Assembly: GCA_964016885.1 (NCBI GenBank)
Contig: OZ024743.1
Location: 168,330,001 to 168,394,000, forward strand
Length of the DNA: 64,000 nucleotides
DNA from: Eledone cirrhosa
Taxonomy: Eukaryota
Direction: 5' to 3'
The notes under the pieces were generated by a model, which saw only the letters and a program-made list of their open reading frames with translations, searched no databases and was not told the DNA's origin. The position numbers and the translations under genes are program-made. Positions 13,125 to 58,032 of this stretch are shown here, in pieces; the first letter of the stretch is position 1, and every line of letters starts with the position of its first letter.

Positions 13125-15320
13125 AAACTGATTTGAGTATTACAGTTGAAACTCTTAAAGGGCTGGCCCAGATGGTGTGTAGGGGTATTGGATTAAAAAT
13201 ATAACATCCCTCCACCCGAAACTAACAATCATGTTCAATGACTGCTTGATGTCGGGTGAGGTACCAGAGTGGTTGACAAAATGTACCACAGATCTGGTAA
13301 TGAAAGACCGAATCAAGGGTAATGATGTTACCAACTATAGACCTATCACATGTCTTTCCGTAATGTGGAAACTGTTAACAAGCATTATGTCTGAGGAAAT
13401 CTACCATCACCTTCACATAAACAGCTTGTTACCGGACGAACAGAAAGGATGCCGAAAGAAGTCCCATGGTACAAAAGAGCAGTTACTTATTGATAAGATG
13501 GTAATGAGGAATTGCAAGAGGAGACACACTGGTCTTGCCATGGGATTGATAGATTACAAAAAGACTTTCGACATGGTACCACATTCTTGGCTAACAGTTG
13601 ATGAGCAAAAGTATGAAGTCCTGGGAAACAGAGTTAACATCGGGTGGAGAATCCTTGGGAGGCGTGAAGATCAAGAGAGGTATCTTCCAGTGGATAGTTT
13701 GTCCCCTGTGTTGTTTTTCCTCGCCCTGATACCCCTGACCATTATACTGCGATAAGTGAGAGTAGGATACAGTTGGGAAAAGGAGAGCTTACCATCAACC
13801 ACCTCCTCTTCATGGACGATCTTAAACTCTTAAGAGTGAGAAGGAGTTGGATGTACTTGTTGACACTGACCGTATTTTCAGCAATGATATATGTATGCAA
13901 TTTGGTATTAATAAGTGTGGAGTCCTAGTGACGAAGAGGGATAAATTGAGGAGAAGCAACGGAATCCAGGTACCAACAGGTGAGATGATAAAGGAAATTG
14001 ACACTGAAGAAGGATACAAATATTTAGCTGTTCTGGAGGCAGATGACATCAAGAACAAAAAAATGAAGGAATTGATAAGATCTGAGTATATTAGGAGAGT
14101 AAGGAGCGTATTAAAATCACATCTGAATAGTAGGAATGTCATAAGTGCAATGAATTCCCGAGCTGTGTCTATTATTAGGTACAGTGCGGGAATTCTGAGA
14201 TGGAATGTTGCTGAACAAAAAGAAATGGATAGGAAGACTAGGAAGCTATTGACTATCTACAACACGTTCCACAAGAGGAGTGATGTCGATAGACTCTACT
14301 TAAAGAGATCTGAAGGTGGAAGATGTCTTATCAGCATATAGGACTGTGTTCAGATGGAGAAAAACAACCTGCACAAATACGTGACTGACAGTAGGGAGCC
14401 AATGCTCAGAATTATACTGAAGGAGAGGACAATAGACCAGGGGATGTCCAAGGAGGAAATAACAACAAGGAGAAAGAGCAACCTTCATTAAAAATCCCTT
14501 CATAGTACCTTCTTTGAGAAAACTGAATTTAGATATCCACAGACATGGAACTGGTTAAAAAGAGGAGACCTTAAAAAGGCTACAGAAGGAATGCTAATGG
14601 CTGCGCAAGAGCAGGTCCTCGGAACGCAGTGGGTGAAGCACCATATTTACAAGGAGGAGGCTAGCCCACTGTGTAGGATCTGTGGAGAGAGAGGAGACTG
14701 TGGCTCACCTTGTATCCGAGTGTAAACACCTAGCCCAGACTCACTATAAGGGCTGGAGACATGATGTGATGGGCAGGGTGAACCACTGGCACCTATGCAA
14801 AGTAAACAATTTACCACATTCTGAGAAGTGGTATGAGCATAAGCCAGAGTCGGTGATAGAAAACGATCAGGTGAAGGTGCTGTGGGATTTTAGGATACAG
14901 ACGGACAAGAAACTGGAACACAATAGACCTGACCTGGTGGTTTTGGACAAGGAAAAAAGATCGTGCTTGATTGTGGATGTGGCCTGCCCATTCGACACGA
15001 GAGTGCAAGAGAAGGAGAGGGAGAAAATTAACCGATACCAGGACTTAAAGTGGGAGGTAAAAAGGATTTGGAACTGCCATGAGGTCAAAGTGTCACAGGC
15101 GCACTAGGTACTATCTCAAAAAGTTTCCAGGGATGGTTAAAGAAAATTGGCCCCACCACGCTTTTTGGAACGCTTCAAAAGGCATGCTTGCTGGGAACAG
15201 CAAGAACCCTCCGATACGTCCTGAATATCTGAGGTAGTGGCTTGATATTCATTTCAACAAACTTTCCAGTTAACTAACATCAGTGTCTGAGACTCAAAGA
15301 ACAATAATAAATAATAATAT
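13125..15320 (+). mobile_element. R4/Dong-like non-LTR retrotransposon (RT + restriction-like endonuclease), 5' truncated
   Basis: NYRPITCL, EQKGCR, DYKK.FD.VPH, FMDD, zinc knuckle, RHD, RPDLVV..D..IVDVACPFD..EK..Y. Flanked by TAA repeats. Confidence 0.9.
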
Positions 15321-21568: not shown

Positions 21569-23210
<1,642 letters not shown>

Positions 23211-23272
23211 ATATATATGTATATATAAAGTTCATATGAATTATCTAAGATTGAGTTTTACACACACACATA

Positions 23273-23336
<64 letters not shown>

Positions 23337-23435
23337 AGTGTATGTGTGTGTTTGTATTTGGTTGTGCGTTTTTGTGATTTGTACGTATTTGTATGTGTAT
23401 AATTGTATAGCTATGTATGTATGTGTGTGTGTATG

Positions 23436-23468
<33 letters not shown>

Positions 23469-23471
23469 ATT

Positions 23472-23538
<67 letters not shown>

Positions 23539-23675
23539 GTATATGTGTGTGTATATATGTATATGTGTGTGTGTGCGTGTTTGTGTATGTATGTATTTGT
23601 GTATGTGTATGTATGTGTTTATGTATTTGTATATGTATATTTATGTGTGAGAGTGTGTGTATGTATGAGTGTATG

Positions 23676-23706
<31 letters not shown>

Positions 23707-23863
23707 CTGTATGTATGCTTTTGTGTGTGTGTGTTTGTGTGTGTGTGATAGCATGTGTGGTTTTATTTTATTTTTCCCTTCCTTCTTCTTTCTCCAGCCT
23801 CACTTTCATATAGATTGCATTTTTGTTTTTAAAATCTAAATTCAATGAACAGACCAGGATTTT

Positions 23864-23921
23864 TTCATTCTGAGGATTGAAAGCAAAATTTTTTGCTTTT
23901 AAGAAACCACTGGTAAATGGA
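23864..23921 (+). ncRNA. Type-I hammerhead in PLE pLTR
   Basis: TTCATT-CTGAGGA-TTGAAAGCAAAA tt TTTTGCTTTTAA-GAAA-CCACTGG-TA-AATGGA. Confidence 0.85.
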
Positions 23922-24068
23922 ATAATTGCTTTATGTTGTTTATTACATAACTATTAAGCTCTGTTACCTACATAGAGCACTCATTTTTCCTGGACTTTTC
24001 CGACGGAATTACTTCATTTATATATATATATATATAGTTATGTAATAAACAACATAAGATAATTATTT

Positions 24069-24124
24069 GATTTACCAGTGGTTTCTTGAAAGCAAACAAA
24101 ATTTGCTTTCAGTCATCAGAATGA
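24069..24124 (-). ncRNA. Type-I hammerhead in inverted PLE pLTR
   Basis: Minus: CATT-CTGATGA-CTGAAAGCAAA...TTTGCTTTCAA-GAAA-CCACTGG-TA-AAT. Confidence 0.85.
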
Positions 24125-24291
24125 AAAAATCCTGGTGTATTTATTGTCAGTGGATTTTAAAAAAAATATATAAACTATATGAAAGTGAGGCTGGAAAAGG
24201 AAGAAGGAAAGGAAAAAGAATAAATATAAAAGCAGATAAACACACATGCACACACACACACACACACACCCATATACATACACACATACAA

Positions 24292-24330
<39 letters not shown>

Positions 24331-24347
24331 CACACATATATACTCAT

Positions 24348-24379
<32 letters not shown>

Positions 24380-24494
24380 CGGATATTATTTATCGTGATT
24401 TCGTGGGCTGATATTCCGATTCTCGATTATTCTACTATATATATATATCCATACATACACATACACATAAATACACAAACACACATACACACAG

Positions 24495-24537
<43 letters not shown>

Positions 24538-24881
24538 TAATCATACATATATACACACGTACATACACACACATACATACACACATATAAAGACGCATAC
24601 ATACGCACACACATATATAGATATATGTACACACACCTACATACGCACACACACAATTAATTATAAGAAAACATAAAAATAAAAAAACAATGGGCAACCA
24701 TATAATGCAATAGGCCGTCACATAAAAAAAAATATACGACTTAAGAAAATAAAAATTATTATAAAGTTGACAGCGATACAGGAAAGGACACAAATAAATA
24801 AACGAACACACATGGTAAGCAATACATACATTTACACATACACATACATACATATAAATATATACATACACACACACCCAT

Positions 24882-24944
<63 letters not shown>

Positions 24945-24947
24945 TGT

Positions 24948-25074
<127 letters not shown>

Positions 25075-25109
25075 AAAATACATAAATATTATATATATAT
25101 ATAAATAAA

Positions 25110-25478
25110 AGAGGTGGGTATGTAAAGGGTAAGGTAGAAAGTAGGGTGGAATAAGGAAAATAAATAATATAGGAAAAAGTTTAAATATAATGGGAGATAA
25201 GGGAGAAAAAGAATATAAGAGTACAGAAAGTGAGTTCAGAGAGTAATAAAAATCGTAGTGGATGTAAGGCGTAGAGAGCAGAGAAGTTCAAGGTGGTTGG
25301 GTCATCGTAGGAATGTCAATCCAGTTACAGAGCAGATGTGATTTCAGGTGAGGACAACATCTGAAGATCTCGGTCTTGGAGTTGCAAGTTTTGTAGAATT
25401 CTAAATTTTTCCAGTGGTACACAAAGAACAATTCTTTGTGTCCCTTTGGTATTTCCTCGAATAGTCTAAAATAGACCA
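25110..25478 (-). mobile_element. Inverted PLE EN end and 3' UTR, same family as 22010-22860
   Basis: [26 protein letters not shown]. Confidence 0.85.
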
Positions 25479-25495
25479 ATGGAATTACTTCGTTC

Positions 25496-29389: not shown

Positions 29390-30232
29390 AGAAGTATGTA
29401 CACGTACATACATATATGTATACAGATGTACAGTAGTATATATATATATATATATACATACATGCACACACATATATATGTACGTATGGATTCACCGAAA
29501 ATGTATTATAATGCTCGGTGTGTTTGTAAACAAACATCCCGTATTAAGCCGTACAGTGTCTAGCAACCATCGTTGCTCGTTTGTTCAACACTGACAGAGG
29601 AACGCTGTACTAGTTTCAAGCTTATTAGCTATCGTCAGCAACGTATACCTTCCTGTCAGATTGTTGAACGTATATACTTACCTTAGGCATATTAACGGCT
29701 GAGCAGCCTAATTTGCATATCGAGTGAGTTAGTCCGCCGGGCGTACCGAAAACTATAAATGGAAAAGAATGAAACGAAATTTCATTTCACACTCTTAGTA
29801 CGGCTGATACTTAAATATAAGTATGTACACGTAAATACATATATGTATACAGACGTACAGTAGTATGTATATATATACATACATGCACACATATATATAT
29901 ATGTACGTATGGGTTTACCGAACATTTATTATAATGTTCGGTTTGTTTCGTAAACAAACAGTCCGTATATACTTTCAAACGTTCAATCATCTGGCAGGAA
30001 GGTATACAATGCTGACGATAGCTAATAAGCTTGAAACTAGTTCATTGTTCCTTTGTCAGTGTTGAACAAAAGGGCAACGATGGTTGCTAAACACTGTACG
30101 GCTTAATTCGGGAAGTTTGTTTACAAACAAACCGAGCATTATAATAAATGTTCGGTATGTGTGCATGTATGTATATATATACATACTACTATACGTCTGT
30201 ATACATATATGTATGTACGTGTACATACTTAT
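29390..30232. mobile_element. 420-nt HHR repeat family in tandem plus inverted arrangement
   Basis: Same unit as 56396-58030. HHRs at 29602-29644 (-, degenerate) and 30006-30048 (+). Confidence 0.8.
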
Positions 30233-42795: not shown

Positions 42796-43870
42796 TATAT
42801 GAAATATAGGAATCAAAGAACTATTCAAAACATGTTTATGCTTACAACTGTTTCCCCCAAACCGAGGTTTGGATTCTTCGGAGCAATTTATTAATGAATG
42901 AACACTTATATGACCTCCTTTTCACCCAAGAGACATACAGATACATATGCAAATATTGTGGGTCAACATTCATTACAGCATTTAGAGTGGCAGTACCCAC
43001 TTAGAGATTACATTCACATTAAAAGATACAATCAAAAATACAGGTTAAAATACAACATGAAAATAAGCGGTTATATAGTGCAAATGTTATATGCGTGGCA
43101 AGCACGTGCGTCTTGTTTATATAGTGTGGCAGAGAGTTACGTGTAGTAGAAGCACTTAGGTAGGTAAACAAGAGTGTTAGGTTGGTTGATGTGGTGGCAA
43201 ATTCTTTATATGATTGTTATAGTCTGTGTGTGGAGAATTGATATAAGCATTAAAAATAGTGCAAGCATTAAAAATATTAAAAATATTTTTAATATTTTTA
43301 ATATTTTTAATGCTTGCACTATTTTTAATGCTTATATCATTTCTCCACACACAGACTATAACAATCATATAAAGAATTTGCCACCAGATCAACCAACCTA
43401 ACACTCTTGTTTACCTACCTAAGTGATTCTACTACACGTAACTCTCTGCCACACTATATAAACAAGACGCACGTGCTTGCCACGCATATAACATTTGCAC
43501 TATATAACCGCTTATTTTCATGTTGTATTTTAACCTGTATTTTTGATTGTATCTTTTAATGTGAATGTAATCTCTAAGTGGGTACTGCCACTCTAAATGC
43601 TGTAATGAATGTTGACCCACAATATTTGCATATGTATCTGTATGTCTCTTGGGTGAAAAGGAGGTCATATAAATGTTCATTCATTAATAAATGGCTCCGA
43701 AGAATCCAAACCTCGGTTTGGAGGAAACAGTTGTAAGCATAAAAATGTTTTGAACAGTTCTTTGATTCCTATATTTCATATAACTACTCTGTAAATCATC
43801 TGATGTTTTTACATTGAGCTACTTAACTTACTGGTAATAAGGTAGTAATATATTACTGCCTACCACTATT
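42796..43870. mobile_element. About 1-kb fold-back with one HHR per arm and a right-hand tail
   Basis: Arms meet near 43289. HHRs at 42840-42884 (-) and 43694-43738 (+): GCT-CCGAAGA-A-TCCAAACC tc GGTTTGGA-G-GAAA-CAGTTG-TA-AGC. Confidence 0.8.
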
Positions 43871-44047
43871 TAGGGTTTGTATAAAAAAATATATATAACT
43901 GCAAAAGGTTTTTGTATTTACATAACCATAAATAGTATGATTAATACTAATTAATACATATATATATATACATATATATACATATATATATATATACCTA
44001 TATATACATATATATATATATATACATATATATACATATATATATAC

Positions 44048-44239
<192 letters not shown>

Positions 44240-44344
44240 GGTATAGAAATTCTTTTAGCGAGAAGCTAATAATATTCTATAACATATATATAGTATTCTA
44301 TAACATATATATAGTATATATAATAGTATTCTATATACATATAT

Positions 44345-45633
44345 ATATATAAATGTTTATATATACATAAACATAAAGTCATAGATATATATGTTGCAAC
44401 CGGTCCCGTTGTAGCTCTATGAAGAATTAATAAATTAAATAATCAGAGCAACATATCATAAATCATGTCCTTAGAATTATTAGATAAAATATATACCATT
44501 TCCTCTCCCAATTAGCATAAATAATCATATAAAAAATCAATTAGACCAAGCAATAAGAATAAAGGCTCTTATGAAGAAATTTCCGACAAATAACCGAAAG
44601 CGGCCTCTTCGCGGTGGCCCCAATAGAGTATTTATCCAACATTTCGACAGCGTGTAGAAACTGACTAAATATACCACCAACCATACACAATTAGGTGCAA
44701 ATTCAAACTTAGAAGAAATGTGTACATAGCGTAATTATATCTCTACCATGGTTTCATCCGTATTTTTAGACATCCAGTTAATAGGAGTCTGGAGAATCGG
44801 ATTCATCAGGAGACAAACTCAAAATTAGACATTTAGTTTTCCAAAGTGATCGCGCCAAAAATAGATTCAAAAATGGCTAAGAATCGTGACGTGGCAGTGG
44901 TCAAGTTAGAAAGAATGTGATTAGTTGCTTACGGCGGGTAGGCTTGTTGCTAGAAAGCGCAGCAAAATATCGCCCAATTGTATCTCAATTGCTCTGATTA
45001 TTTAATTTATTAATTCTTCATAGAGCTACAACGTGACCGGTTGCAACATATATATCTATGACTTTATGTTTATGTATATGTAAACCTTTATATTTAATAA
45101 TCTCCCGTTAGGTTCAGATACAATTGGGCGATATTTGGCTTCGCTTTCTAGCAACAAGCCTACCCGCCGTAAGCAACTAATCACATTCTTTCTAACTTGA
45201 CCACTGCCACGTCACGATTCTTAGCCATTTTTGAATCTATTTTTGGAGCGATCACTTTGGAAAACTAAATGTCTAATTTTGAGTTTGTCTCCTGATGAAT
45301 CCGATACTCCAGACATATCCGATTAATTGGATGTCTAAAAATACGGATGAAACCATAGTAGAGATATAATTACGGTATGTACACATTTCTTCTAATTGTG
45401 TATGGTTGATGGTATATTTAGTCAGTTTCTACACGCTGTCGAAATGTTGGATAAATACTCTATTGGGGCCACCGCGAAGAGGCCGCTTTCGGTTATTTGT
45501 CGGAAATTTCTTCATAACAGCCTTTATTCTTATAGCTTGGTCTAATTGATTTTTTATATGGTTAATTATGCTAATTGGGAGAGGAAATGGTATATATTTT
45601 ATCTAATAATTCTAAGGACATGATTTATGATAT
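44345..45633. mobile_element. Fold-back of an about 645-nt non-coding HHR unit
   Basis: HHRs at 44739-44814 (-; GTCTC-CTGATGA-ATCCG...CGGAT-GAAA-CCATGG-TA-GAGAT) and 45287-45365 (+). Confidence 0.85.
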
Positions 45634-45767
45634 ATATATATATATATACATATATATATACATATATATAAATATATATATATACATATATATAAATATA
45701 TATATATAAATATATATAAATATATATATATACATATATATAAATATATATATCTACATATATATAA

Positions 45768-45913
<146 letters not shown>

Positions 45914-46211
45914 CATATATATATATATACACATATATATATATACATATATACATATTTATATATATATATATATATATACATATATATATTGGTAAAC
46001 GGAATAGAAAATGCTGACAAATTATTCACAGTTGAAAAATGGTTTAATTAGGAATAAAAGAGTATTAGTAATTGTATGGGTTAGTATTCAGTTGTGGTTT
46101 TAAGTTTTTAAGTTTTTACCGGTTGCGCATTTCTAAATGCTTTTCAAAAATAATTTTGAGATAGAGTGTCCGTGTTGTTTGCTCTGATCTGATTAGTTTT
46201 GGGAATTCTAC

Positions 46212-47138: not shown

Positions 47139-49281
47139 TTAGGGAGAAGTGTTTAGACGGGGTCTGTATTTGTTAATGAAGTAAGATTCCTTGCTGATGC
47201 GCTGGGTGTGGGTGGCATTATCTTTAAATTTGTAGAGGGTAAAGATTCTGAAGTTGGGATGATTTTGGGCGGCACAGGTATCAATGTGTTCACTCAGTGG
47301 TATTTTCCTGTATTCCCGTATTTTAATTTGGGATCTATGGACAGTCATGCGTTGGCGGAGGCTGTTTTTGGTCTGGCCTATGTATTGTTCTCGACAACCT
47401 GAGCAAGTTAATACATATATTAGATTTTCCGATGCACATGTGAAATTGTGTGTTACTATAAAACGTTGTCCTTCTTTGAAACAGAATTCCGAACCCTCTA
47501 TTAGGTTGATGCAAATGCCACTGTTGGGTCTATCGCATATTTTTACTGTGGGTTTCGTTGTTGTGGTTGGCAGTACTTTGGCATGTGTTAGGATGTTTTT
47601 CATTGACTTGGATTGTCTTTTGCTCTTCATGATATCGTGTGTTCGTAGCATTTGGTTCATTCTATGGTCCTTTTTCAACACAGGGATGTTCTGGAGGATG
47701 GTGTCAAAGGCCTCATTGTTGAGGGGGTTGTGTGTGGAGATGTATGGAAGAGCTTTTAGTTTCGGTTGATTTACTTTAGGGTGTCTAAGGTCCTGGGTAC
47801 TGAGTTTTAGGGCACGTTGGATTCCATTGTCAATTAGTGATGCAGGGTAGTCCCTGCCTATGAGTGTGTCCTTTAGTTCTTGTAGCCGTAAGTAGCAGAT
47901 GTTTTTATTGGAGACTATAGTACAGATTCTCTTGGATAAGTTGTAGGGAATATTAATTTTAACGTGTATAGGGTGGCAAGAGTTGAAAGGGAGATATTGC
48001 TTGGAGTCTGTGGGCTTGTAGTATATGTCTGTTTCTATTCTTTTGTTATGGCTCTTAATGAGGATGTCGAGGAAGGGGGGTTGTTGATGGCTGTATTCCA
48101 TTGTGAAGTTAATATTCGTGTTGAGCCCATTTATAAGTGTGTGAAATTCTTTAAGTTTTTCGATGTTTTCGTGCCAAAGGATGAAGCAGTCATCTAGATA
48201 TCGCTTCCAGTTTCTTTCAATGTGTAAGTGGAGGGTGTTTCCAAATTTATTTAGGACTTTAGTGTAGAGGGTGATTTCCAGGTATCCCATGACTAGGTTG
48301 GCATAAGTGGGGGCTGTTTTCGTTCCCATAGCGGTCCCAGATTTCTGCCTGTAGGGTTTGTTATTGAAAACGAAGTAATTGTTCTCCAAGATAAATTTGA
48401 GTCCCTCTATCACGAATTCTTTTTTGATGCGTTGTGGGAGTTCATTGTGGAAATTATCCAGCCAGAATTGGATAGCTTCTATTCCTGTGGGGGATGTTGG
48501 AGTATAGGTTGACTACATCGAACGTCACTAGTAGGGTTTGTTCAGAAAGTGGCATATTAGGGAGGTGATTGAGCATATCTAGGTCGTTCCTTATATAGCT
48601 TTTGATGTGTTTGAGGAAGGGTTTGAGAAGGGTATCAATGAAGTTGCTAAGGCGGTTGGTTTCGCAAGCGGGGCCTTCTATTATAGGTCTTAATTTGAGA
48701 TCATTGGGTGAAGGGACATTGATGACTATGTCTGTGGCTTCCTGGTATGCCTTACTTATTGATTCGCTTTTATGTACTTTAGGGATACCGTAGAAAAGGC
48801 TGGATTTACTTGTGAAGTCTGTGATGAAGCTGAATTCCTTGTTAGTGAGTCCTTCTTTGTATTGGTTGATTAGAGTTTTTAGGTTTCTTATAATTTTCTG
48901 TTGATTGTAGTGTTCAGCCTTTTCGTAGTATGTTTCGTTTTCCAAAGTGGAAAGCGCTAAGTTGATATAGAATTCTGTCTCCATTAGGACTACTGTAATC
49001 CCTTTATCAGCCTCTTTTATTGTAATGGTTCTGTCGGTTTTTAATCTATTTAATTCTTCCCATTCTTTATTGTTGAGGTTTGGCTTGTGTTTTTGTCTGT
49101 GCAAGTGTTGGTAAGGGAAGTTTGTGATGTGTTCACAGAATTCGTCCAGGATTTTATTTCTACCTTTTGAAGGGGTGTAATTGCTTCTATTTCTGGCTAA
49201 TGATTCATCCTCATTGTACTGGTCGAATAGTTGTTCACTAAGTCGTAACTTTCTACAGAAGTCTGTGATGTCTTCCTTCAT
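47139..49281 (-). pseudogene. PLE reverse transcriptase-GIY-YIG ORF, frameshifted
   Basis: ORFs 48454-49281 and 47139-48413 are consecutive parts of one RT-EN protein. Confidence 0.85.
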
Positions 49282-50500
49282 TTCATAGTAGTTAGAACGT
49301 AGTGGGGTCGGTGTGAATTTAAGACCTTTGGAGAGTAAGTTGATAAGGTTGGGTGTTGGTTCTGCACTAGTAAGATTGATAATTTTTATTACTATCGGTT
49401 TCTCCTCCCTGTCTTGTGTTATTTTGTTTGCCTGTATCTGTGTGCTGTGTCTAAAAAATGGTTGGGGTAGAGGGGTTGTCTGCTGATGTTAAGTGGTCTC
49501 CTGTGTTTGTTATATTCCTTGTTGTTGTAAAATGTGGTTCGGGTTGGTGGTTGTAGATTGAATGGGGTGTTCCTGTACTGCGAGTATGGGTGTGTGTTTC
49601 TATGTGCCATGTTGTATTGTGGTGTTATAAGTGGCCTACGTTGTTGGTTGTATCGTGTGGTGTGGGTTTGTTGTGTATTGTGGAAGCGAGAGTTGAGAAA
49701 ATGGTAATTACCTTGCTGTCCCCTTGAAGCGGGGAAGTTGTTACATCTATCATGGTGGTGGTATCTTTTCCCTATGTTTGACGATGAGGCATCCGCGTAG
49801 TAGTTGAGTGATTTGGTATGGTGTCTCCTTGAAGGGGGAAGTTGTAAATGTCATTCTGGGGGAGATGATTTCTTGGGTTTTTGTTCCTTCTTATTGTAGC
49901 GAGGTTGGGAATTTCATCTTCGGTGTGGTGCTTCCTTCTTCGTTTGTTAGAGGCTTGGGGGTTTGAGAAGTTGTTGTGCGGTTCAGTTATGGGTTTTCCT
50001 ATTTTTATGAACGGGTTATTGGAGGTGTAATCCGTTTGAAAAGTCGATTCATAGTGTAGGAACCAAGCGGCACTTTTTCCCAGCGTTGAAGGGATTTCAG
50101 TTCTTCTCTGTTGCAGTCCCCTTTCCATAATTTGGAGATCTTCTCTACCTTGGGGCCTTCAGTTTTGTTGTTGATTTCCAGGAGGATCTCTTCATCGATG
50201 GTTTTGATTTTTTCCTCATTTGTCTGGGCCCTCAGTTTAAGAAGTTCAATTTCTGTCTTCATTTTTTCCAATGACATTCTTTCCCTAAGGTGTCTTTGAG
50301 GTTCGGGTTCATTTGGAATGGACTTTATTTGTAGTTTACTTTGGAGAGGTAGAGGGGTTGAGTTAAGCCATTTTTCATATATCTCTGCTTTGTTGTGATT
50401 TTGTATCATCTTCCAGAGTGAAAACTTTCTGTCTCTGAGGGATTTGTTCCATTTTGGAATTGTTCGAATTTTCATTTTGTATGAATCAATCTCACATGGT
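47139..50500 (-). mobile_element. Near-intact Neptune-like PLE
   Basis: LSKGLKFTPTP, IKEADKG, FYGIPKVHK, LRPII, FDVVNLYSNI, GTAMGTKTAPTYANL, RYLDD, NLIYVLTC..C..YIGQT. Frameshift near 48450-48490. Confidence 0.9.
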
Positions 50501-50510
50501 TCTTCGTTAT

Positions 50511-53712
<3,202 letters not shown>

Positions 53713-55818: not shown

Positions 55819-55939
55819 ATATATATATTTATATATATATATATATATATATGTATGTACGTATACATACATGCATACTTACATTTAAGTAAGTGCCGTA
55901 ATTAAGAGTGAGAAATGAAATTTCGTTTCATTCTATTCC

Positions 55940-56026
<87 letters not shown>

Positions 56027-56029
56027 TAT

Positions 56030-56265
56030 ACTAGTAATAAGGTAAAGAAAATGGTGACAAGTTTTTCCCAGTGAAAAATAGTTTAATTAGTAATAAGTAT
56101 TAGTTAGTATTCAGTTTTAGTTCAAAAATTAAAACTGAATACTAACTAATACTTATTACTAATTTATACTTATTCCTAATTAAACTATTTTTCACCGGGA
56201 AAAATTTGTCACCATTTTCTTTTCCATTTTACTAATATATCACAACTTGTGTGTCACACCAGTAT

Positions 56266-56270
<5 letters not shown>
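56030..56270. repeat. Fold-back of a pLTR-end family also seen at 45992-46100
   Basis: agaaaatggtgacaa...tattcagtttta is inverted around 56122. Confidence 0.65.
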
Positions 56271-56296
<26 letters not shown>

Positions 56297-56395
56297 AACG
56301 AAGGAGTTGTCGTAAGGAACCAGATGGACCATAACGCACCAGAGTACTTAATACTTAGGGTAGTCCAGAAATAGCCGTCGAAGCGACTTGAGCTC

Positions 56396-57164
56396 GTACA
56401 TATATATATGTATATATGTGCATGTATATATATATATATATATATATGCATACTACTGTACGTCTGTATACATATATGTATGTACGTATACATACTTACA
56501 TTTAAATATCAGCCGTACTAAGAGTGAGAAATGAAATTTCATTTCATTCGTTTCCATTTATCGTTTTCGGTATGCCCGGCCGACTAAATCACTCGATATG
56601 CAAATTAGGCTGCTCAGCCTTTAATATGCATAAGGAAAGTATATACTTTCAAATGTTCAATCATCTGACAGGAAGGTATACGATGCTGACGATAGCTAAT
56701 AAGCTTGAAACTAGTTCATCGTTCCTTTGTCAGTGTTGAACAAAGGGGCGACGATGGTTGCCGAACACTGTACGACTTAATTTGGGCTGTTTGTTTACAA
56801 ACAAACCGAACATTATAATAAATGTTCGGTAAACCCATACGTACATATATATATGTGTATATGTGCATGTATGTATATATATACATACTACTGTACGTCT
56901 ATATACATATATGTATGTACGTATACATACTTACATTTAAGTATCAGCCGTACTAAGAATGAGAAATTTCATTTCATTTCATTCGTTTCCATTTATATAT
57001 AGCCTAATTTGCATATCGAGTGAGTTAGTGGCCGGGCGTACCGAAAACGATAAATGGAAAAAATGAAATTTCATTTCTCACTCTTAGTACGGCTGATACT
57101 TAAATATAATTATGTATACGTACATTCATATATGTATACACACGTACAGTAGAATGTATATACA

Positions 57165-57247
<83 letters not shown>

Positions 57248-58032
57248 ACGTATGGGTTTACCGAACATTTATTATAATTCTCGGTTTGTTTGTAAACAAA
57301 CAGCCCGAATTATTAGCCGTACATTGTTCGGCAACCATCGTTGCCATTTTGTTCATCACTCACAAAGGAACGATGAACTAGTTTCTAGCTTATTAGCTAT
57401 CGTCAGCATCGTATACCTTCCCGTCAGTTGATTGAACGTTTGAAAGTATATACTTTCCTTATGCATATTAACGGCTGAGTAGCCTAATTTGCATATCGAG
57501 TGAGTTAGTGGCCGGGCGTACCGAAAACGATAAATGGAAAAAATGAAATTTCATTTCTCACTCTTAGTATGGCTGATACTTAAATAAAAGTATGTATACG
57601 TACATACATATATGTCTGCATACGTACAGTAGTATGTATATACATACATGTACACATATATATATGTACGTATAGGTTTATCGAACGTTTATTATAATGC
57701 TCGGTTTGTTTGTAAACAAACAGCCCGTATTATTAGCCGTACCGTGTTCGGCAACCATCGTTGCCATTTTGTTCAACACTGACAAAGGAACGATGAACTA
57801 GTTTCTCGCTTATTAGCTGTCATCAGCACCGTATACCTTCCTGTCAGTTGATTGAACGTTTGAAAGTATATACTTTCCTTATGTATATTAACGGCTGAGC
57901 AACCAACATGATACTTAAATATAAGTATGTATACGTACATACGATGGTTGCCGAACACTGTAAGGTTAATAATTCGGGCTGTTTGTTTACAAACAAACTG
58001 AGCATTATAATAAATGTTTGGTAAACCCATAC
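56396..58032. mobile_element. Tandem and inverted array of 420-nt retrozyme-like HHR units
   Basis: HHR ACGATG-CTGACGA-TAGC taataa GCT(T/A)-GAAA-CTAG-TT-CATCGT at 56680-56722 (+), 57370-57412 (-) and 57790-57832 (-); spacing 420. Confidence 0.85.

What the first reader, a model, noticed from the sequence alone, without database searches (positions are those of the whole stretch)
44345..45633. Circularly permuted about 645-nt HHR monomer, suggesting a circular or multimeric RNA template
Seen: the plus arm starts at TTGCTCTG (44989) and ends at ...TTTATGATAT (45633). In the minus arm those two ends are contiguous (GATTTATGATATG|TTGCTCTG around 44451). The plus arm is therefore almost exactly one monomer in a different register from the other arm. 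It has one clean HHR and no ORF. Inference: a non-autonomous retrozyme copied from a circular or tandem RNA by a PLE RT.
Basis: partly seen in the sequence, partly recalled or inferred. Interest (0 to 1): 0.8.

Follow-up and report, generated by a model that had tools for sequence, protein, structure and literature searches.

The report
Two-armed hammerhead retrozyme, Penelope-style insertion
A 657-base non-coding repeat with a predicted self-cutting ribozyme sits in TA runs across this animal genome as two outward-pointing arms that end at two fixed sites, one per arm; it is likely copied from an RNA circle by a Penelope-type reverse transcriptase, which would make a long-proposed mechanism testable.

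Summary
Window 44350-45634 holds two head-to-head arms of one 657-nt non-coding unit, each with a type I hammerhead whose stems covary across copies. The plus arm is exactly one unit, but that is a coincidence: 1 of 48 sampled arms reaching 600 nt stops at one full round.

The family has at least hundreds of dispersed copies in (TA)n. None of 213 sampled insertions is joined to a PLE ORF. In all 96 two-armed insertions with intact ends, one arm ends at site A and the other at site B, 102 nt further on (the PLE 'tail'). Of 94 passes reaching the ribozyme cut site, 4 stop exactly there (0.19 expected) and the rest run through. Tandem units within an insertion share subfamily alleles (7.7% discordant vs 74% for random pairs). 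Related non-coding families and an autonomous Neptune-like PLE share the tail hairpin and largely follow the A+B rule.

Verdict: a new non-LTR retrozyme (non-autonomous PLE). It is likely inserted by priming both target ends on a circular monomer (0.6); an uncut tandem transcript is the main rival (0.25). No RNA data were available.

The parts
44989..45634 (+). 'A arm': unit positions 1-657 (646 nt; private 18-nt deletion). Its 3' end is at site A, joined to (TA)n
   Evidence: (L001)
44350..44988 (-). 'B arm': unit 119-657 followed by 1-102. Its 3' end is at site B, joined to (TA)n; the exact end (44345-44350) is blurred by TA identity
44988..44989 (.). Head-to-head junction of the two 5'-truncated arms, with at most 1 nt of overlap
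45286..45366 (+). Type I hammerhead: stem I 45286-45291/45361-45366, CUGAUGA 45292-45298, long stem II 45299-45348, GAAA 45349-45352, 2-bp stem III with CAUA loop. Predicted cut between 45360 and 45361 (unit 365/366)
   Evidence: (constrained fold -16.2 vs free -18.6 kcal/mol; covariation)
44738..44815 (-). Second hammerhead copy (CUGAUGA 44809-44803; palindromic ACCAUGGU stem-loop III). Predicted cut between 44744 and 44743
44350..44451 (-). The 102-nt 'tail' between site A and site B, carried at the end of the B arm only
44991..45030 (+). Tail hairpin motif (TCTG ... CATTGARC.AC type) just 3' of site A. Shared with two sister retrozymes, at least one further repeat family and an autonomous Neptune-like PLE
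45100..45119 (+). Small hairpin just 3' of site B (site B = 45096 inside this arm), conserved in three retrozyme families
45370..45600 (+). Long G-U-rich rod hairpin between the cut site and site A, stable on the sense strand only
   Evidence: z -4.8 (sense -68.5, antisense -32.1 kcal/mol); minus-arm copy z -3.4; sister family z -4.2
43950..44349 (.). Left flank: (TA)n run and AT-rich spacer (target side of the B arm)
45635..45990 (.). Right flank: (TA)n target microsatellite

Best explanation
This is a protein-free passenger of Penelope-like elements: a 657-nt hammerhead unit whose transcripts likely self-cut into monomers and close into circles, which a Penelope-type reverse transcriptase/endonuclease likely copies into a cut (TA)n run from both DNA ends at once, one end starting at site A and the other at site B. 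Shown in DNA: the unit, the dispersed copies in (TA)n, the head-to-head two-arm layout, the fixed A+B pairing, head-to-tail repeats up to 2.3 units that are as old as the insertion, and the absence of an attached ORF. Inferred: transcription; cleavage in vivo (4 arms stop exactly at the cut, so some templates were likely cut linear monomers, which still contain both start sites); ligation to a circle; copying backwards round the circle past the cut site and past one full turn; joining of the two cDNA 5' ends by short microhomology; and a Neptune-like PLE with the same tail hairpin as the enzyme donor. Two-site priming of both ends is the firmer part (about 0.85). Circle rather than uncut multimer is the softer part.
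For: (1) All 115 simple two-arm insertions are head-to-head. Of 96 with both ends intact, 96 are A+B, 0 A+A and 0 B+B. All 79 A/B ends in the sample picked on the ribozyme rather than on an end are followed by TA repeats, and other TATA words in the unit are not recurrent 3' ends. (2) Neither arm is a fold-back copy of the other: in 40 of 96 neither arm's sequence lies within the other, and arm lengths are uncorrelated (rho 0.04). 45 of 96 junctions overlap by 1-6 nt. (3) 77 of 203 end-anchored arms cross the cut site and 39 exceed one unit. Crossing is seamless: 188 of 190 segments keep A365 and 186 keep G366, with no break in linkage at 365. (4) Tandem units in one arm disagree at 61 of 794 informative subfamily sites (7.7%) against 74% for random pairs; opposite arms disagree at 76 of 876 (8.7%) against 75%. 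In the 20 insertions with both comparisons, tandem copies are about as diverged as opposite arms (3.07 vs 3.36%), so most repeats were made at insertion from alike units, in several subfamilies. (5) 4 of 94 passes stop exactly at the first base after the predicted cut (0.19 expected). (6) The ribozyme and rod look selected as sense RNA: stem II pair 304:353 is A-U in 90 and G-C in 42 of 140 insertions, pair 306:351 is C-G in 125 and U-A in 9, the core is intact in 117 of 140, and the rod has z -4.8. (7) The same layout appears in a 679-nt sister family, a young 483-nt family (14 of 16 two-arm insertions A+B) and a 4.19-kb autonomous PLE (8 of 8 opposite arms end at A). (8) A PLE protein starts reverse transcription at two internal sites that bound the tail and extends both target strands (PMC11167929, main text read). 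Retrozyme monomers are abundant circles in coral, mussel and axolotl (PMC7229834). (9) Inference: finished arms lack the hairpins 3' of A or B, so copying from linear read-through would lose about one unit per generation.
Against: No RNA of this family was seen (see Tried and rejected). The longest arrays were partly built later in DNA: L222 units differ by 3/648 against 17-20/650, and L331, L343 and L356 show similar 2-of-3 sharing. DNA duplication can therefore also regenerate uniform arrays. Where three or more copies cover a site, rare alleles are in all copies 8 times and in only some 15 times (10 outside L222), more mosaicism than one pure monomer circle predicts. L211 joins two subfamily haplotypes. 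There is no pile-up at one full turn. In vitro, cleavage was not needed and unprocessed RNA was the main substrate of the anole PLE, and its start sites did not differ between strands. The 483-nt family has one A+A exception (L339). The donor PLE is linked by one short motif and by target only; no longer homology was found, and the motif pattern was written after seeing it.
Confidence: 0.6

Rival explanations
1. Same two-site priming, but the template is mostly an uncut linear read-through transcript of a tandem source array. Arrays are renewed by unequal DNA exchange, and the ribozyme cuts only sometimes.
For: Later DNA duplication of units is visible in 4 long arrays, and 4 of 42 tandem pairs of 150 nt or more are under 0.8% diverged (so are 4 of 46 opposite-arm pairs). 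Rare alleles are often mosaic within an insertion. Uncut RNA was the dominant in vitro substrate. 8 of 9 tested Xenopus retrozyme dimers did not cleave.
Against: No array beyond about 3.1 units appeared among the 38-39 best candidates scored in two searches with multi-unit queries, and the 3.1-unit one is a later duplication. Arms longer than one unit occur in several subfamilies with concordant alleles. Tandem copies are not more diverged than opposite arms, as aged source arrays would make them.
Confidence: 0.25
2. The template is the cut linear monomer, and the RT crosses the cut site by jumping from its 5' end to the 3' end of the same or another monomer.
For: Some arms stop at the cut. 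L211 is a subfamily mosaic, and some rare alleles are specific to one arm.
Against: About 95% of passes cross the cut, with no excess of indels or substitutions at 365/366 and no loss of linkage there. The switch in L211 was not mapped to the cut site.
Confidence: 0.1
3. These are ordinary 5'-truncated pLTRs of an autonomous PLE whose ORF was not sampled.
For: The neighbouring palindrome at 42796-43955 looks alike and did turn out to be the end of an autonomous PLE. Only 213 insertions were examined, with 1.5-4 kb flanks and ten PLE query proteins.
Against: Upstream of the ribozyme comes the previous unit's tail, not an ORF, wherever an arm is long enough. 0 of 213 have a same-strand PLE ORF within 600 nt upstream; the 25 nearby hits are downstream, on the opposite strand or beyond TA runs. 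No protein similarity in the unit.
Confidence: 0.03
4. The palindrome forms by self-priming or fold-back, possibly on an antisense template, as proposed for rotifer PLEs.
For: Proposed in PMC3846280 (passages). 8 of 96 junctions are nearly symmetric.
Against: 40 of 96 insertions have arms that are not subsets of each other. RNA structure is sense-specific. Fold-back does not explain fixed A+B ends.
Confidence: 0.02

Closest known systems
Metazoan non-LTR retrozymes (Cervera and de la Pena 2020, PMC7229834; bioRxiv 10.64898/2026.07.22.740005)
   Same: Non-coding, AT-rich (34% GC) tandem unit with one type I hammerhead per unit and a 2-bp tetraloop helix III. Monomers, dimers and short multimers. 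Coexists with PLEs. Proposed cycle is circle, then PLE RT, then tandem cDNA.
   Different: 657 nt exceeds the 170-400 nt of the 2020 paper but lies within the 51-972 bp of the 2026 preprint. Stem II is long (about 50 nt). Copies are dispersed two-armed inverted insertions in (TA)n with fixed A and B ends, which the text I read does not describe for retrozymes. Expression and circles are untested here.
Penelope-like elements, EN+ clades (Craig 2021 PMC8557442; Arkhipova 2013 PMC3846280; Frangieh 2024 PMC11167929)
   Same: 5' truncation, partial tandems, an inverted 5'-truncated copy, a tail at one end only, microsatellite targets and two internal RT start sites.
   Different: No ORF. The tail is 102 nt rather than 30-40. 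The A+B pairing is 96 of 96 rather than 'often' or 'optional', and the published in vitro start sites did not differ between strands.
Non-autonomous Chlamys PLEs such as MRC1 (PMC8557442, passage)
   Same: Non-autonomous PLE passengers with multicopy head-to-tail insertions.
   Different: Those resemble their autonomous partner at the 3' end, and the N-terminal-EN PLEs they belong to lack canonical hammerheads. Here only a short tail motif links to a candidate partner.
L1 twin priming (recalled; abstract start of PMC2837659 seen)
   Same: Both target ends prime, giving an inverted 5' part with microhomology joins.
   Different: In L1 (recalled) the second start is variable and the two cDNAs cover different parts of a linear RNA. 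Here both starts are fixed, 102 nt apart, and both arms copy the same upstream sequence.

Membership tests
non-LTR retrozyme | Type I hammerhead with conserved core and three helices | tested here: met
   core intact in 117 of 140 insertions, compensatory changes in stem II; different stems with the same core in two sister families. Rfam gave no hit.
non-LTR retrozyme | Head-to-tail tandem units, one ribozyme each | tested here: met
   657-to-1 junctions, spacing about 655-658, up to 3.1 units
non-LTR retrozyme | No protein coding | tested here: met
non-LTR retrozyme | Monomer of about 170-400 nt (2020 definition) | tested here: not met
   657 nt. The 2026 preprint gives 51-972 bp for the class, so size is not taken as excluding.
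non-LTR retrozyme | Self-cleavage activity | tested here: inconclusive
   Indirect only: 4 of 94 passes stop at the cut; needs an assay
non-LTR retrozyme | Expressed as linear and circular monomer RNA | not testable with these tools
   No RNA run was listed; the contig runs laid cannot show ends or circles
PLE-mobilised element | Tail at one end, inverted 5'-truncated copy, partial tandems | tested here: met
PLE-mobilised element | Microsatellite or AT-rich target | tested here: met
   79 of 79 A/B ends followed by TA repeats
PLE-mobilised element | Sequence homology to an autonomous PLE's pLTR | tested here: inconclusive
   Only the tail hairpin motif is shared with a Neptune-like family; none with two other families
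PLE-mobilised element | Target-site duplication | not testable with these tools
   Insertions lie inside (TA)n and no empty sites were available
autonomous PLE | RT plus GIY-YIG ORF between pLTRs | tested here: not met
   0 of 213 insertions

The most novel reading that the evidence does not exclude
Each insertion is made by a two-headed PLE complex that assigns the left and right target ends to two different fixed start sites on a circular RNA and rolls both ways outward. The genome hosts a whole clade of such circular passengers (483-679 nt), all addressed to Neptune-like enzymes by one tail hairpin, which would act as a portable 'copy me' signal. The insertions would then be a fossil record that proves circle-templated reverse transcription and in vivo ribozyme cutting in an animal germline.
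Probability: 0.35. Interest if true: 0.7.

Novelty: new member of a known kind. Interest (0 to 1): 0.5.

Why it matters
How Penelope-like elements make tandem and inverted insertions, what their hammerheads do, and whether animal retrozymes are copied from RNA circles by PLE enzymes are open questions; the papers read state these as proposals. This family supplies a short protein-free substrate with two mapped start sites, a strict one-end-each rule (96 of 96), a mapped cut site with arms that stop there, and a shared tail hairpin. Circle versus linear template and the two-site priming model can therefore be tested directly. The class itself is already known.

Tried and rejected
Rfam at gathering and E-value thresholds found no hammerhead, only chance miRNA hits. 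Free folding of the 110-nt ribozyme regions was no better than shuffles (z -0.3 and -0.7), so support rests on covariation and the constrained fold.

No RNA holder was listed. The three contig runs (one study, type unrecorded) show only that the family and its relatives are abundant.

'Exactly one turn' as a signature was rejected. An apparent pile-up of 5' ends at unit position 1 was an alignment artefact: six such arms continue 10-18 nt into the next unit.

Fold-back of one arm was rejected. A break in linkage or scars at the cut site was not found. Long source arrays were not found in two DNA searches that scored only 38-39 candidates each, so they remain unexcluded.

Two abundant autonomous PLE families (30 loci each) share no homology with the unit. 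Pfam and PDB did not recognise the RT of the candidate donor. It has a YRDD motif, E 7e-4 to the window's other PLE RT and a sub-threshold GIY-YIG hit; 'Neptune-like' rests on the cysteine cluster before a C-terminal GIY-YIG (passage, my recall), not on a tree.

Earlier scan notes held nothing. An octopus repeat-annotation paper had no ribozyme content (PMC13282606, passages); the cephalopod guess for the host is recalled and untested.

Full report
Observation. The window comes from a 3.0-Gb AT-rich genome. Bases 44350-45634 form two inverted arms joined at 44988/44989, both 3' ends pointing outward into (TA)n. The plus arm is one full turn of a 657-nt unit. The minus arm is unit 119-657 plus 1-102. 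The arms differ at 17 of 616 aligned bases. Each carries a type I hammerhead, with predicted cuts after 45360 and 44744.

Family. A DNA search gave 3981 first-look candidates, which is not a copy number. Exact motif counts were 245 for a ribozyme 32-mer, 587 for 'end A plus TA' and 93 for 'end B plus TA'. I examined 230 loci, which reduce to 213 insertions: 115 simple two-arm, 78 single-arm and 20 complex or cut off. The loci were the 30 best matches, 70 stretches from the first 100 ribozyme hits, 70 from the first 100 A-end hits, 50 of the 93 B-end hits and 10 long copies. Pairwise identity among 32 near-full monomers averages 93%, with several subfamilies. No insertion has a same-strand PLE ORF within 600 nt upstream of a 5' end; 25 have some PLE-coding hit nearby, downstream, on the opposite strand or across TA runs. 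Long arms continue into the previous unit instead.

Ribozyme and RNA structure. Among 140 insertions with a whole hammerhead, the 12 core bases are intact in 117. Stem II shows paired changes (A-U 90, G-C 42; C-G 125, U-A 9), and stems I and III pair in 124-138 per position, apart from one column that my reference mis-gapped. A 679-nt sister family (77% identical, 829 exact motif hits) and a young 483-nt family (98-99% identical copies) keep the core with different stems. A rod hairpin between the cut and site A is stable on the sense strand only (z -4.8, -3.4 and -4.2). Of 15 subfamily changes in the rod, 12 keep pairing, which is modest support because transitions often give G-U pairs.

Two fixed ends. 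All 115 two-arm insertions are head-to-head. In the 96 with both ends intact, one arm ends at A (657) and the other at B (102) every time; 19 others have at least one damaged or non-standard end and were left out of that count. The arms are independent copies joined mostly by 1-6 nt overlaps (45 of 96) or short inserts (39 of 96). The 483-nt family gives 14 A+B, 1 A+A and 1 damaged of 16, in a sample biased to long copies. The palindrome next door (42796-43955) is the end of a 4.19-kb autonomous PLE; where an opposite arm was found (8 of 30 loci chosen on the tailed arm, one being the window) it ended at A each time. That element carries a similar hairpin motif right after its A site, as do the three retrozymes and at least one more repeat family. 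[quoted passage not shown] A PLE protein was shown to start at two internal sites bounding the tail and to extend both target strands (PMC11167929, parts 1-2 of 4 read). I infer that both target ends prime, one at each site.

Template. In 203 arms from 125 end-anchored insertions, 94 passes reach the cut site. Four stop exactly on the first base after it (0.19 expected at the background rate; the only other position in 103-530 with three or more stops is 500). 77 arms cross the cut, 39 exceed one unit, and only 1 of 48 reaching 600 nt stops at a full turn (which adds 12 insertions missed). The uniform-rate assumption is rough, since AT-rich zones are hot spots. Crossing is seamless. Tandem units within an arm share subfamily alleles (61 of 794 informative sites discordant against 74% for random pairs) and so do opposite arms (76 of 876 against 75%); these counts dropped up to six duplicate loci. 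Tandem copies are about as diverged as opposite arms. New alleles must therefore have been spread across all units of an insertion again and again, which a circular monomer does by itself.

Against this, four of the longest arrays show later DNA duplication, rare alleles are mosaic more often than a single pure monomer predicts, and one array mixes subfamilies. Published in vitro work found uncut RNA to be the main substrate. Hence 0.6 for circles, 0.25 for uncut tandem RNA and 0.1 for template jumps.

Comparison and novelty. The element meets the DNA-level features of non-LTR retrozymes (PMC7229834 passages and Discussion; bioRxiv 10.64898/2026.07.22.740005, parts 1-3 of 5), except the 2020 size range. 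It shows the insertion signature of PLEs. Circle-templated, longer-than-unit copying by PLE enzymes is a published proposal (PMC4209133 passages). In seven searches and the text read, I saw no description of two-armed retrozyme insertions with a counted, strict A+B rule. The library lacks most subscription papers, and I did not see the supplements of these papers (the preprint's are closed), where this could appear. Verdict: a new member of a known kind, with above-ordinary interest because its insertions record the mechanism.

Noticed in passing
window 42796-43955: 492-nt palindrome whose right arm carries a further tail of about 170 nt. It is the end of a 4.19-kb autonomous Neptune-like PLE (pLTR-ORF-pLTR in L388) with a non-canonical hammerhead-like core (CCGAAGA in the copies seen) and the shared tail hairpin; a candidate enzyme donor.
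   Followed up: partly
window 47142-50520 (-): Frameshifted PLE with RT-like and GIY-YIG regions, from a very young, abundant family (150 scored hits at 95-96% amino acid identity, many with 784-aa open frames). No homology to the retrozyme.
   Followed up: partly
L325, L313, L324 (G000 C1): Older 679-nt sister retrozyme family, 77% identical, with a longer helix III and the same A and B ends.
   Followed up: partly
L331, L330, L343 (G000 C2, C6, C4): Young 483-nt retrozyme family (copies about 1.8% apart) with a compact hammerhead; the best candidate for expression tests.
   Followed up: partly
L189:173-832, L104:126-817, L083:251-844, window 4740-4860 (-): Further repeat families with the same tail motif, some at 530-590 nt spacing; possibly more retrozymes.
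   Followed up: no
window 29480-30156 and 55871-58032; 22482-25483: Other inverted and tandem repeat clusters with hammerhead-like CTGANGA...GAAAC motifs; the latter lies next to a Neptune-like ORF end at 21743-22693.
   Followed up: no
G000: The ribozyme 32-mer is strand-skewed (102 forward, 143 reverse; the first 100 listed are 49/51). This could mean an unseen array or duplicated block in the unlisted part; unexplained.
   Followed up: partly
window 13107-15104 (+): Decayed non-LTR retrotransposon RT fragments (Pfam RVT_1).
   Followed up: no
L020/L027, L148/L149, L060/L121/L122: Near-identical insertions with shared flanks: segmental duplicates made after insertion.
   Followed up: no
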